Assembly (NCBI RefSeq): GCF_017348835.2
Contig: NZ_CP071375.1
Direction: 5' to 3' (one strand)
Source of the DNA: Escherichia coli
Lineage (GTDB): Bacteria > Pseudomonadota > Gammaproteobacteria > Enterobacterales > Enterobacteriaceae
Length of the DNA stretch: 64,000 nucleotides
In this document: positions 22,729 through 25,700 of the stretch, in pieces
Numbering within the stretch: the stretch's first letter is position 1
Layout: every line of letters starts with the position of its first letter
Position numbers: made by a program

Positions 22729-25700
22729 TGAATGACACCAGCTTCGAAAACTGCATTAAGTGCACCGTCTGCACCACCGCCTGCCCAGTGAGCCGGGTGA
22801 ATCCCGGTTATCCAGGGCCAAAACAAGCCGGGCCGGATGGCGAGCGTCTGCGTTTAAAAGATGGCGCACTGTATGACGAGGCGCTGAAATATTGTATCAA
22901 CTGCAAACGTTGTGAAGTCGCCTGCCCGTCCGATGTGAAGATTGGCGATATCATCCAGCGCGCGCGGGCGAAATATGACACCACGCGCCCGTCGCTGCGT
23001 AATTTTGTGTTGAGTCATACCGACCTGATGGGTAGCGTTTCCACGCCGTTCGCACCAATCGTCAACACCGCTACCTCGCTGAAACCGGTGCGGCAGTTGC
23101 TTGATGCGGCGTTAAAAATCGATCATCGCCGCACGCTACCGAAATACTCCTTCGGCACGTTTCGTCGCTGGTATCGCAGCGTGGCGGCTCAGCAAGCGCA
23201 GTATAAAGACCAGGTCGCTTTCTTTCACGGCTGCTTCGTTAACTACAACCATCCGCAGTTAGGTAAAGATTTAATTAAAGTGCTCAACGCAATGGGTACC
23301 GGTGTACAACTGCTCAGCAAAGAAAAATGCTGCGGCGTACCGCTGATCGCCAACGGCTTTACCGATAAAGCACGCAAACAGGCAATTACGAATGTAGAGT
23401 CGATCCGCGAAGCTGTGGGAGTAAAAGGCATTCCGGTGATTGCCACCTCCTCAACCTGTACATTTGCCCTGCGCGACGAATACCCGGAAGTGCTGAATGT
23501 CGACAACAAAGGCTTGCGCGATCATATCGAACTGGCGACCCGCTGGTTGTGGCGCAAGCTGGACGAAGGCAAAACGTTACCGCTGAAACCGCTGCCGCTG
23601 AAAGTGGTTTATCACACTCCGTGCCATATGGAAAAAATGGGCTGGACGCTCTACACCCTGGAGCTGTTGCGTAACATCCCGGGGCTTGAGTTAACGGTGC
23701 TGGATTCCCAGTGCTGCGGTATTGCGGGTACTTACGGTTTCAAAAAAGAGAACTACCCCACCTCACAATCCATCGGCGCACCACTGTTCCGCCAGATAGA
23801 AGAAAGCGGCGCAGATCTGGTGGTCACCGACTGCGAAACCTGTAAATGGCAGATTGAGATGTCCACAAGTCTTCGCTGCGAACATCCGATTACGCTACTG
23901 GCCCAGGCGCTGGCTTAAACTCCTTTCTGATGCCCGGTAAGCATGTGGTTACCGGGCATTTTTGCGTACACGATTCCGTGCCCAATGTATGCGTTGCAAC
24001 GCAGTGAAAATTCCTCTGAAAACGTCTCGCAAAGGCTGAAACTGGCAGATGTCAAAGGCCTGGGATAACCGTAATGTCGCGTCATCATAAATATCAGGTG
24101 ACGGACAACCATGACCGAATCAACAACCTCCTCCCCGCATGATGCAGTATTTAAAACCTTTATGTTCACACCCGAAACCGCACGGGATTTTCTCGAAATA
24201 CATTTACCAGAACCACTGCGCAAGCTTTGCAACCTGCAAACCTTACGCCTGGAACCCACTAGTTTTATTGAAAAAAGTTTACGCGCTTACTACTCGGATG
24301 TTTTGTGGTCCGTGGAAACCAGCGACGGTGACGGCTATATCTACTGCGTGATTGAACATCAAAGCTCTGCAGAAAAGAATATGGCTTTTCGGCTAATGCG
24401 CTATGCCACTGCCGCCATGCAGCGTCACCTGGACAAAGGCTATGACAGAGTCCCGCTGGTGGTGCCGTTGCTGTTTTATCATGGCGAAACCTCGCCCTAC
24501 CCGTACTCACTCAACTGGCTGGATGAGTTTGACGGTCCGCAACTTGCCCGGCAGTTGTACACCGAAGCTTTTCCGTTGGTGGATATCACCATCGTACCTG
24601 ACGATGAGATCATGCAACATCGGCGTATAGCTCTGCTTGAACTGATTCAAAAGCATATTCGCGACCGCGATTTAATCGGTATGGTCGACAGGATCACCAC
24701 GCTTTTGGTTAGAGGCTTCACTAATGACAGCCAGCTACAAACACTGTTTAATTATCTGCTGCAATGCGGCGATACCTCCCGTTTCACCCGTTTTATTCAG
24801 GAGATTGCCGAACGTTCACCACTACAAAAGGAGAGATTAATGACTATTGCTGAACGGCTGAGGCAGGAAGGGCATCAAATTGGCTGGCAGGAAGGTAAAT
24901 TAGAAGGTTTGCAGCAAGGCATGCATGAACAAGCCATTAAAATTGCCTTGCGCATGCTGGAGCAGGGTATCGATCTTGACCTGGTGCTGGCAACAACCCA
25001 GCTAACCGAGGCCGATCTCGCTCCATTAAGCCTGCAATGAATGCGACAACGTGCCGGGTAAAAGCCTTCTCCCCGGCGCGCCTCTTTCATGCCCCCTGTG
25101 GCGACAGCATCAACGACTCAACAACCTCAATCCAGCCATGCTCACTGGCAATGTCCTGGCCGTTTAACCAACGGCGTAGCATATTCAGTGCCATCATTGC
25201 GCACACTTCCTGACGGATAGCCAGGCTATAGCGTGTAGTGCTGAAACGCACACGCAGAGCGAAAGTGCCATCTGGCGTGGCTAGCGCAAAGTTGAGATGC
25301 TCGTTCTCGAAACCCGAAACAGCCAGTGCCAGCCCGGCAAAATGGTTGGCCCGCCGTTCTGTAATCCAGTGCGCAGTTTGCGCCAGGGTTTCTTCCTGTG
25401 AAGGAACCACTTCACACGCCAGCAATGGAGCACCTGCGCGAGAAAGTTGCAAAGCCAATAAACCACCGGTGAATTGCTCGCTCAACGTCAGGCTGAACTG
25501 GCGGTTTTGCAATTCGCGACTGATTTGCGCGGGCAGTCCTTCGGTGCCTTCGAAAATCACGCTCTGTCCGGCAACACGTTTAACGTCCAGCCACAGTTTT
25601 TCCATCGCCTGTTGCTCGCTTGCCGGTCCGGTGAGTTTCAGTTCGATGATCGGCATTGAGGAGCGATAGCCCATTGTTACGCCCGGCGGCAGTTGTAGAG

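What the first reader, a model, noticed from the sequence alone, without database searches (positions are those of the whole stretch)
25041..25086. Rhamnonate-type operon absent between the Rpn nuclease gene and yfaY
As I remember K-12, ypaA and the rhmA/rhmT/rhmD/rhmR (yfaU-yfaX) cluster lie between yfaD and yfaY. Here the yfaD stop and the yfaY stop are separated by only about 45 bp. The junction lies right next to an Rpn-family recombination-promoting nuclease gene, a family proposed to promote horizontal exchange, which makes this a plausible indel hotspot.
Basis: partly seen in the sequence, partly recalled or inferred. Interest (0 to 1): 0.35.

Follow-up and report, generated by a model that had tools for sequence, protein, structure and literature searches.

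The report
Rare complete loss of rhamnonate operon
This E. coli strain lacks the four-gene L-rhamnonate utilisation operon that K-12 carries between rpnE (yfaD) and yfaY; this is an ordinary operon-loss polymorphism, but this clean version of it is rare (9 of 5,426 complete genomes) and sits at a site that varies widely across enterobacteria.

Summary
In the window, rpnE/yfaD (24111-25040, +) and yfaY (25087-26298, -) converge with 46 bp between their stop codons. K-12 has ypaA plus rhmA-rhmT-rhmD-rhmR there.

Among 5,426 complete E. coli genomes:
- 3,821 keep the cluster.
- 1,239 share a different 3,862-bp deletion that leaves a 462-bp rhmA stub (IAI1 type).
- About 351 have other partial forms.
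- Only 9 have the window's remnant-free junction, and they lie in backgrounds 1.3-1.5% apart.

The junction is not a simple cut of a K-12-like sequence. About 217 bp (24898-25114) form a diverged allele found only in these genomes. This block covers the rpnE C-terminal tail, the spacer with the yfaY terminator hairpin, and the last 9 yfaY codons.

Other Escherichia species lost rhm independently at other breakpoints. Across Enterobacteriaceae the glpC-yfaY interval holds nothing, rhm, rpnE, both, or a fimbrial operon. So the site is a hotspot.

Nothing ties the loss to RpnE. K-12 RpnE was inactive in published recombination assays, the breakpoints do not converge on rpnE, and rhm presence varies in genera without rpnE at this site.

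Verdict: a real and ordinary accessory-operon loss, of low interest.

The parts
22728..23918 (+). glpC, the conserved left anchor of the variable interval
   Evidence: tblastn with K-12 GlpC gives 99.7% over 396 aa. TIGR03379 matches at E 1.8e-230.
24111..25040 (+). rpnE (yfaD), intact, 309 aa; an Rpn/YhgA-like PD-(D/E)XK nuclease (the RpnL form)
   Evidence: NF007418 matches at E 5.5e-216 over positions 1-305 of 308, and TIGR01784 also matches. The residues equivalent to RpnA D11, D63, E82, Q84 and the PDDE motif at 163-166 are all present (translation; residue list in PMC5350276). The gene is about 99% identical to K-12 rpnE up to 24897.
24840..25040 (+). In-frame internal ORF for the small RpnE-S protein (66 aa, from M244), preceded by AAGGAGAG at 24828-24835
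   Evidence: Sequence; the frame was checked as (24840-24111)/3 = 243. It aligns from its first residue with K-12 YpaA/RpnESs. PMC10400941 shows that such internal small proteins are made from all five K-12 rpn genes.
24882..24917 (+). Four-amino-acid repeat tract ([12 protein letters not shown]) in the shared RpnL/RpnS helix
   Evidence: The tract in the alignment covers 12 residues in the window. It covers 20 in XJ34-type genomes (317-aa RpnE, a 24-bp indel), 8 in K-12 YpaA and 4 in K-12 RpnE. This matches the hypervariable repeats described in PMC10400941.
24898..25114 (.). Allele-specific diverged block that travels with the deletion. It comprises the rpnE tail (…ADLAPLSLQ*), the spacer and the yfaY tail (…ESLMLSPQGA*).
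   Evidence: Identity to K-12 rpnE is about 99% up to 24897, then only 86% to ypaA up to 25021. Positions 25022-25114 match nothing in K-12 or in other E. coli alleles. More than 80% of this block is found in only 9 of 5,426 genomes.
25041..25086 (.). 46-bp spacer between the two stop codons, i.e. the place where the rhm cluster is missing
   Evidence: It is 46 bp in PE164, F2_81 and Res13, and 47 bp in the XJ34 group and 2018-05-2CC.
25050..25080 (.). GC-rich hairpin (9-bp stem CGTGCCGGG/CCCGGCGCG, 13-nt loop). It is a diverged homologue of the hairpin just downstream of yfaY in K-12 and probably serves as terminator for both convergent genes.
   Evidence: Folding gives -19.4 kcal/mol (z -2.2) on the + strand and -21.5 kcal/mol (z -1.7) on the - strand. 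K-12 has TGTGCCGGT…ACCGGCACA at the same place (z -3.8). The arm similarity is my reading of the sequences. No strict terminator pattern was found, so the terminator function is inferred.
25087..26298 (-). yfaY (CinA-family NMN-deamidase-related protein), intact, 403 aa. It has a C-terminal tail 3 aa longer than in K-12.
   Evidence: NF002978 matches at E 1.3e-243 over residues 1-396. From 25115 onward it is 98.5% identical to K-12. Tails are compared. The protein is identical to WP_001625541.1.

Best explanation
The window carries a rare, remnant-free loss allele of the L-rhamnonate operon (rhmA-rhmT-rhmD-rhmR, with ypaA) at the variable glpC-yfaY interval. Both neighbours stay intact. rpnE keeps its catalytic residues and its internal small-protein ORF. 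yfaY keeps its conserved domain. The two genes now share the old yfaY terminator hairpin.

The most likely history has three steps.
1. The cluster was removed once by a RecA-independent, illegitimate join. The join lies about 10 nt past the rpnE stop and just outside the yfaY terminator hairpin. This step is inferred.
2. This happened in a haplotype whose rpnE and yfaY 3' ends were already strongly diverged from those of today's common E. coli alleles. This step is inferred.
3. The allele then spread among E. coli lineages by ordinary homologous recombination in the flanking core genes. That recombination eroded the flanks down to the ~217 bp that cannot be separated from the indel. That the allele now sits in diverse backgrounds is shown.

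The expected consequence is loss of L-rhamnonate uptake and catabolism. That capacity is also being lost in many other Escherichia lineages through other deletions and IS insertion, which suggests relaxed selection on it. No mobile-element or Rpn-specific mechanism is needed.
For: The absence and the exact spacing are shown, and the K-12 reference order.

Population counts:
- 3,821 of 5,426 genomes hold at least 80% of the cluster.
- 1,239 share the 3,862-bp allele-B junction.
- 9 share the window junction.

Evidence that the allele is old and spread:
- Apart from PE164 and F2_81, which match the window at 100%, the carriers are only 98.5-98.7% identical to the window over 17.8 kb. That is as far from it as O157:H7 is.
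- There are about 7 SNPs per kb even in the bins next to the junction.
- The carriers come from pigs, cattle, humans and wastewater on several continents.

Evidence for the diverged block:
- Its limits are given.
- Both hairpin arms, and weak similarity in the tails, indicate a diverged homologue rather than unrelated filler DNA.

Evidence for recurrent independent rhm loss:
- Escherichia sp. E1V33, E. whittamii and MOD1-EC7003 have different breakpoints.
- O157:H7 has IS1203 in rhmT.
- Other partial forms exist.

No direct repeats bracket the cluster, and no IS or integrase lies at the junction. E. albertii, and the GTDB species representative labelled E. coli SCPM-O-B-8794 (L034), have rhm plus rpnE, so presence is the ancestral state for the genus.
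Against: No trustworthy rhm-positive progenitor carrying the window-type rpnE and yfaY tails was found. The only candidate is O157:H7 TR01. Its rhm+IS1203 block has zero differences from a typical O157 genome, with boundaries exactly at the junction, which looks like a reference-filled assembly. The deletion endpoints and any microhomology therefore cannot be read directly.

The YfaY tail begins ESL…, like E. albertii and Citrobacter, and not ESM… as in all sampled E. coli and cryptic clades. Several Citrobacter species and S. enterica subsp. diarizonae have yfaY and rpnE natively 47-83 bp apart. These two facts fit an imported 'never had it' allele about as well. The source of the 217-bp block remains unidentified.
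Confidence: 0.62

Rival explanations
1. Imported empty site. The junction never held rhm. It comes from a diverged Escherichia or enterobacterial lineage in which yfaY and rpnE are natively adjacent, and it replaced the rhm-bearing allele in some E. coli by homologous recombination in rpnE and yfaY.
For: Four Citrobacter species (five representative genomes) have yfaY and rpnE 47-50 bp apart, and S. diarizonae has them 83 bp apart; the window has 46 bp. The window's YfaY tail starts ESL, like non-E. coli taxa, and its DNA homology to Citrobacter yfaY runs about 14 nt further than its homology to E. coli. A GGG..AAGGCT motif is shared with the Citrobacter spacer. No real rhm-positive progenitor was found.
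Against: Window rpnE is about 99% identical to K-12 rpnE up to 24897, and yfaY is 98.5% identical from 25115. The foreign patch would therefore be only ~217 bp. The Citrobacter RpnE proteins are only 59-71% identical, too distant for homologous exchange, and their spacers do not align convincingly. None of the 80 species representatives carries the block or the …APLSLQ tail. The hairpin arms resemble the E. coli yfaY terminator.
Confidence: 0.22
2. Rpn-driven rearrangement. The RpnE nuclease, or recombination among rpn 3' ends, cut next to its own gene and caused the deletion and the scrambled junction.
For: The left end of the missing segment lies about 10 nt past the rpnE stop. The rpnE 3' end is itself highly unstable: it shows four-amino-acid repeat indels, the ypaA duplication, and 80-90% identity classes among strains. 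Window RpnE keeps all catalytic residues. PMC10400941 speculates that RpnL proteins may initiate local recombination.
Against: K-12 RpnE was inactive in the recombination, toxicity and SOS assays (PMC5350276). The other rhm deletions start 100-500 bp into rhmA or inside rhmR, not at rpnE. rhm presence or absence also varies where no rpn gene lies in the interval. Nothing in the sequence is diagnostic of Rpn cleavage, which is reported to be non-specific.
Confidence: 0.1
3. Assembly or sequencing artefact that collapsed the region.
For: None. This rival is listed only for completeness.
Against: The identical junction occurs in 9 complete genomes from different laboratories and countries and in 22 of 23 further contigs. 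Both flanking ORFs are intact.
Confidence: 0.01

Closest known systems
E. coli K-12 MG1655 glpC-rpnE(yfaD)-ypaA-rhmA(yfaU)-rhmT(yfaV)-rhmD(yfaW)-rhmR(yfaX)-yfaY region
   Same: The flanking genes, their order and their orientation are the same. Identity is 98-99% outside 24898-25114.
   Different: About 4.76 kb of K-12 is replaced by ~217 bp of diverged sequence; the K-12 segment comprises the rpnE 3' end, ypaA, four rhm genes and the last 20 nt of yfaY. RpnE is 309 aa rather than 299, YfaY is 403 aa rather than 400, and there is no ypaA/rpnESs copy.
Common E. coli 'allele B' (IAI1, NB4833, O111 strains): a 3,862-bp deletion leaving a 462-bp rhmA stub
   Same: The locus is the same and so is the functional outcome (no rhmT, rhmD or rhmR). 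The rpnE gene is single-copy without ypaA.
   Different: Allele B is a simple deletion of K-12-like sequence with a 2-bp (GG) microhomology. It keeps a pseudogene remnant and the normal yfaY tail, and it is present in 1,239 genomes. The window allele leaves no remnant, has unique junction sequence and is present in 9 genomes.
Native yfaY-rpnE adjacency in Citrobacter (sp. wls619, werkmanii, youngae, portucalensis) and Salmonella enterica subsp. diarizonae
   Same: yfaY and rpn are convergent, 47-83 bp apart, with a hairpin in the spacer, followed by glpC.
   Different: The RpnE proteins are only 59-71% identical, the spacers are not convincingly alignable, and the tails differ.
Rpn toxin / intragenic antitoxin (RpnL/RpnS) phage-defence genes (Zhong et al. 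2023, PMC10400941; Kingston et al. 2017, PMC5350276)
   Same: The neighbouring gene shows the family match, the catalytic residues, the internal SD+ATG for a small C-terminal protein and the variable four-amino-acid repeats.
   Different: These features describe the neighbour gene, not the missing operon. No activity was tested here, and K-12 RpnE was inactive in the 2017 assays.

Membership tests
rhm (yfaU-yfaX) L-rhamnonate catabolic operon | Presence of rhmD (dehydratase), rhmA (aldolase), rhmT (MFS transporter) and rhmR (IclR regulator) between yfaY and rpnE/glpC | tested here: not met
   tblastn of the K-12 proteins against the whole window finds no hit. Only 46 bp lie between the flanking genes.
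Rpn/YhgA-like nuclease (for the neighbour gene) | Match to the family models (PF04754 / TIGR01784; RpnE equivalog NF007418) | tested here: met
   NF007418 scores 715 bits against a cut-off of 583, and TIGR01784 scores 170 bits against 52. PF04754 and PF27070 are recorded on identical proteins.
Rpn/YhgA-like nuclease (for the neighbour gene) | PD-(D/E)XK-type catalytic residues (RpnA D11, D63, E82, Q84) | tested here: met
   D11, D63, E82 and Q84 are present in the translation. The residue list comes from PMC5350276.
RpnL/RpnS gene-within-gene toxin-antitoxin | Internal ribosome-binding site and in-frame start for a small C-terminal protein, plus strain-variable four-amino-acid repeats | tested here: met
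   AAGGAGAG followed by ATG at 24840, in frame. The repeat tract differs among alleles: 4, 8, 12 or 20 residues.
RpnL/RpnS gene-within-gene toxin-antitoxin | Nuclease toxicity of the long form, blocked by the short form; phage defence | not testable with these tools
   This needs experiments. K-12 RpnE was inactive when overexpressed (PMC5350276).
Mobile-element insertion or excision (IS, transposon, integrative island) | Transposase or integrase, terminal inverted repeats, target-site duplication or att-like direct repeats at the ends of the variable segment | tested here: not met
   No direct repeat brackets the rhm cluster in an rhm-positive genome. No IS or integrase ORF lies at the window junction. 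The variable ends differ among alleles.
Simple illegitimate deletion of a K-12-like allele | Sequence on both sides of the junction collinear with, and near-identical to, the rhm-positive allele right up to the breakpoint, often with microhomology | tested here: not met
   This is met for allele B (2-bp GG) but not for the window. About 217 bp around the junction are diverged or unmatched.
Recombination-spread structural allele | The same junction sits in chromosomal backgrounds as divergent from each other as unrelated strains | tested here: met
   The junction is 98.8-100% identical among the 9 genomes. The 7 carriers other than PE164 and F2_81 are 98.5-98.7% identical to the window over 17.8 kb. 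No core-genome tree was built.

The most novel reading that the evidence does not exclude
The 217-bp diverged junction block is the footprint of an Rpn-associated, RecA-independent event. In this reading, RpnE-initiated breakage next to its own hypervariable 3' end both removed the adjacent operon and rewrote the ends of the two flanking genes. That would make this locus a natural example of Rpn-driven genome rearrangement.
Probability: 0.06. Interest if true: 0.6.

Novelty: new member of a known kind. Interest (0 to 1): 0.17.

Why it matters
The practical meaning is small: strains with this allele should be unable to take up and degrade L-rhamnonate. That ability is already lost or damaged in roughly 30% of complete E. 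coli genomes.

The locus has some use as a case study. One short interval between two core genes (glpC and yfaY) has at least five structural alleles within E. coli and at least five gene contents across the family. These include a phage-defence rpn gene whose own 3' end is hypervariable. The interval could therefore serve as a marker for lineage typing, and as a natural test bed for asking whether Rpn genes raise local rearrangement rates.

The analysis also flags a probable reference-filled region in the public O157:H7 TR01 assembly.

Tried and rejected
1. Source of the unmatched 93 bp (25022-25114).
- blastn-short against K-12 (73 kb), the whole window and all 100+ fetched loci gave only the window-type genomes themselves.
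- A PLSDB plasmid search returned only mislabelled chromosomes carrying ordinary rpnE alleles.
- A JGI metagenome scan with a 30-mer from the yfaY tail returned 0 hits.
- None of the 80 GTDB species loci carries the block or the …APLSLQ RpnE tail.

2. Citrobacter and Salmonella yfaY-rpnE spacers as donors. The alignment shows only a short GGG..AAGGCT motif, which is not convincing.

3. O157:H7 TR01 as the rhm-positive progenitor. I rejected it as reliable evidence. Its rhm+IS1203 block has 0 differences from O157 F7349 over 5.7 kb, while both flanks are window-type. The right boundary is a chimera that neither parent explains.

4. Direct repeats bracketing the rhm cluster as an excision signature: none were found.

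5. Strict intrinsic-terminator or promoter patterns in 24700-25400: none were found. The hairpin is supported only by folding, with modest z-scores.

6. Literature on rhm presence/absence polymorphism: two full-text searches found none.

7. Gene conversion from another rpn paralogue. The closest relatives of the window's rpnE 3' end are rpnE/ypaA alleles at the same locus, at no more than 90% identity, and not other paralogues.
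Full report
**1. The observation**

The window has an ORF at 24111..25040 (+, 309 aa) and one at 25087..26298 (-, 403 aa). The two genes converge, and 25041-25086 (46 bp) lies between their stop codons. NCBIfam identifies the first as the RpnE-type Rpn/YhgA-like protein (NF007418, 715 bits against a cut-off of 583; TIGR01784) and the second as YfaY (NF002978, E 1.3e-243). glpC lies upstream, and yfaZ and ais lie beyond yfaY.

In K-12 MG1655 the same interval reads rpnE, a 198-bp pseudogene (ypaA), yfaU/rhmA, yfaV/rhmT, rhmD, yfaX/rhmR, yfaY. No RhmA, RhmT, RhmD or RhmR homologue exists anywhere in the 64-kb window.

The window is 100% identical over 17.8 kb to the pig isolates PE164 and F2_81.

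**2. What the junction looks like in detail**

It is not a simple excision of K-12-like DNA.
- The window matches K-12 rpnE at about 99% up to 24897.
- From 24898 to 25021 it resembles rpnE/ypaA 3' ends only at about 86%.
- 25022-25114 has no counterpart in K-12 or in any other E. coli allele.
- Normal homology (98.5%) resumes at 25115, inside yfaY.

The block 24898-25114 therefore contains several allele-specific elements:
- a distinct RpnE C-terminus (…[12 protein letters not shown] instead of …LSEADLAANNH*);
- the spacer;
- a distinct YfaY tail (…VVESLMLSPQGA* instead of …VVESMTLSV*).

The spacer holds a 9-bp GC-rich hairpin at 25050-25080. Its two arms (CGTGCCGGG / CCCGGCGCG) resemble those of the hairpin just downstream of yfaY in K-12 (TGTGCCGGT / ACCGGCACA). 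I therefore read the right part of the block as a strongly diverged version of the yfaY 3' end and terminator, not as random filler. The missing segment then begins about 10 nt after the rpnE stop and ends just outside that hairpin. This reading is an inference from sequence similarity.

**3. How common it is**

Counts among 5,426 complete E. coli genomes:
- 3,821 hold at least 80% of the 4,169-bp K-12 rhm cluster.
- 1,239 share one other allele ("B"). This is a 3,862-bp deletion with a 2-bp GG microhomology that leaves a 462-bp rhmA stub. The classical B1 strain IAI1 carries it.
- About 351 have other partial forms. In O157:H7, rhmT is split by IS1203.
- Only 15 genomes have no rhm DNA at all. 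By counting, 9 of these are the window type, one has a four-gene chaperone-usher fimbrial operon in place of rpnE plus rhm, and 5 lack the region.

In the larger assembly collection, the exact 403-aa YfaY is indexed in 650 blocks. Of the 23 contigs read, 22 show the window's gene order. The allele is rare but not private.

**4. Age and spread**

The nine carriers are not one clone as far as this region shows.
- Seven of them are only 98.5-98.7% identical to the window over 17.8 kb, no closer than O157:H7.
- They differ by about 7 SNPs per kb even in the bins next to the junction.
- Their RpnE is 309 aa, 317 aa (a 24-bp repeat indel) or frameshifted.
- They come from pigs (China, Canada), cattle (China), humans (China, Viet Nam, Gambia) and wastewater (Thailand).

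The junction block itself differs among the nine only by a 1-bp indel and at most one further mismatch. This pattern fits an old allele carried between backgrounds by homologous recombination in the flanking core genes. Only the part inseparable from the indel stays allele-specific.

**5. Is there an rhm-positive progenitor?**

One genome, O157:H7 TR01, has the window-type rpnE tail (to 10 nt past the stop) and the window-type yfaY, with an rhm cluster between them. I do not trust it as a progenitor, for three reasons.
- Its rhm+IS1203 block has zero differences from the typical O157 strain F7349 over 5.7 kb.
- Both of its flanks differ from O157 by about 1%, and the switch occurs exactly at the junction.
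- The right boundary (…GTGCAGTAAA|GCGCCCTC…) cannot be produced by a crossover between the two parent sequences.

This is what a consensus built on an O157 reference would look like if uncovered bases were left as reference. I could not check the reads. So no secure progenitor is known, and the original breakpoints cannot be read.

**6. The wider picture: a variable interval**

I used YfaY to fetch 80 species-representative loci and placed K-12 proteins on them. The glpC-yfaY interval falls into these classes:
- Empty, with the genes from 6 bp overlapping to about 60 bp apart: Enterobacter, Leclercia, Lelliottia, Kluyvera, Buttiauxella, Kosakonia and two Citrobacter.
- rhm only: Klebsiella, Raoultella, several Citrobacter, Phytobacter, Intestinirhabdus.
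- rhm plus rpnE: E. coli, E. albertii, C. braakii, C. sedlakii.
- rpnE only: four Citrobacter species with 47-50 bp to yfaY, and S. diarizonae with 83 bp.

Three other Escherichia species carry decayed rhm remnants with breakpoints that differ from each other and from allele B. rhm has therefore been lost repeatedly and independently in the genus, which suggests relaxed selection on the operon rather than one special mechanism. No direct repeats bracket the cluster.

**7. The Rpn neighbour**

The window's rpnE is intact.
- It keeps the residues shown to be essential in RpnA (D11, D63, E82, Q84).
- It has the internal SD and ATG (24828-24842) for a 66-aa RpnE-S protein.
- It has the strain-variable four-amino-acid repeats.

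Zhong et al. (PMC10400941) describe these features for this family, which they present as toxin/intragenic-antitoxin systems and propose as phage defence, shown experimentally for a plasmid-encoded member. They also describe ypaA as a downstream second copy of rpnE-S that can be lost by deletion or fusion. The window has the single-copy form.

Kingston et al. (PMC5350276) found K-12 RpnE inactive in the recombination, toxicity and SOS assays in which RpnA-D were active. Together with the scattered breakpoints and rhm polymorphism in genera with no rpn gene in the interval, this gives no support for RpnE having caused the loss. It cannot be excluded, because the left end of the missing segment abuts rpnE and the rpnE 3' end is itself unstable.

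**8. Origin of the diverged block**

The origin is unresolved. The YfaY tail begins ESL, as in E. albertii and Citrobacter, rather than ESM as in all sampled E. coli and cryptic clades. DNA homology to Citrobacter yfaY also extends about 14 nt further than homology to E. coli. These hints point to a lineage outside present-day E. coli. Against that, none of the 80 representatives, the plasmid collection or the JGI metagenomes holds the block.

I rate deletion in a diverged haplotype followed by introgression at about 0.6. Import of a never-occupied site is about 0.2, and an Rpn-driven event is about 0.1.

**9. Verdict**

The finding is real and correctly described, but it is an ordinary presence/absence polymorphism of a dispensable catabolic operon. 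The mildly unusual points are:
- the rarity of this allele (0.17% of complete genomes);
- its clean, remnant-free form with both neighbours intact;
- its unique, diverged junction sequence of unknown source;
- the multi-allelic nature of the site.

Interest is low.

Noticed in passing
window 13165-16921: Three ORFs are present where K-12 has only short pseudogene remnants between inaA and glpQ. They are an MFS transporter (396 aa, -), a LysR-type regulator (292 aa, +) and a 368-aa ORF with no NCBIfam match. This is another indel relative to K-12.
   Followed up: partly
window 46708-48255: Relative to K-12, most of yfbK and all of yfbN-yfbO-yfbP are absent. The yfbK/yfbL junction piece (46731-47251) is only 81% identical.
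   Followed up: no
window 21600-22000 (glpB): A 400-bp patch is only 91-95% identical to K-12, inside a region that is otherwise ~99% identical. It looks like a short recombination import.
   Followed up: no
L086 (NZ_CP033605.1, E. coli O157:H7 TR01) 2292-8000: The rhm+IS1203 block is identical (0 differences in 5.7 kb) to typical O157. Both flanks carry the window-type rpnE tail and yfaY and differ from O157 by ~1%. The boundaries coincide with the deletion junction, and the right boundary is a chimera. This is probably reference sequence left in uncovered positions, or otherwise an unusual recombinant.
   Followed up: partly
L087 (NZ_CP015229.1, strain 06-00048) 2992-7943: A four-gene chaperone-usher fimbrial operon lies between glpC and yfaY in place of rpnE and rhm. 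Its yfaY is only 95% identical to the window's.
   Followed up: no
L036, L039, L040, L041, L061, L065, L066, L079, L081 (between nudI and yfaZ, or just upstream of yfaZ): In Leclercia, Klebsiella, Raoultella, Phytobacter and Pseudenterobacter an rpn homologue (~50-55% identical to RpnE) sits on the other side of yfaY-yfaZ. So rpn genes occupy different slots of the same neighbourhood in different genera.
   Followed up: no
L002 5761-6965 (K-12 record NZ_CP010443.1): rhmD is annotated as frameshifted in this MG1655 record, whereas other K-12 records in the hit list show rhmD without comment. It is possibly a sequencing error in that assembly.
   Followed up: no
L091 (14EC033) 11224-11921: One of the window-type genomes has an IS1A insertion between ais and arnB, upstream of the arn (polymyxin-resistance lipid A modification) operon.
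   Followed up: no
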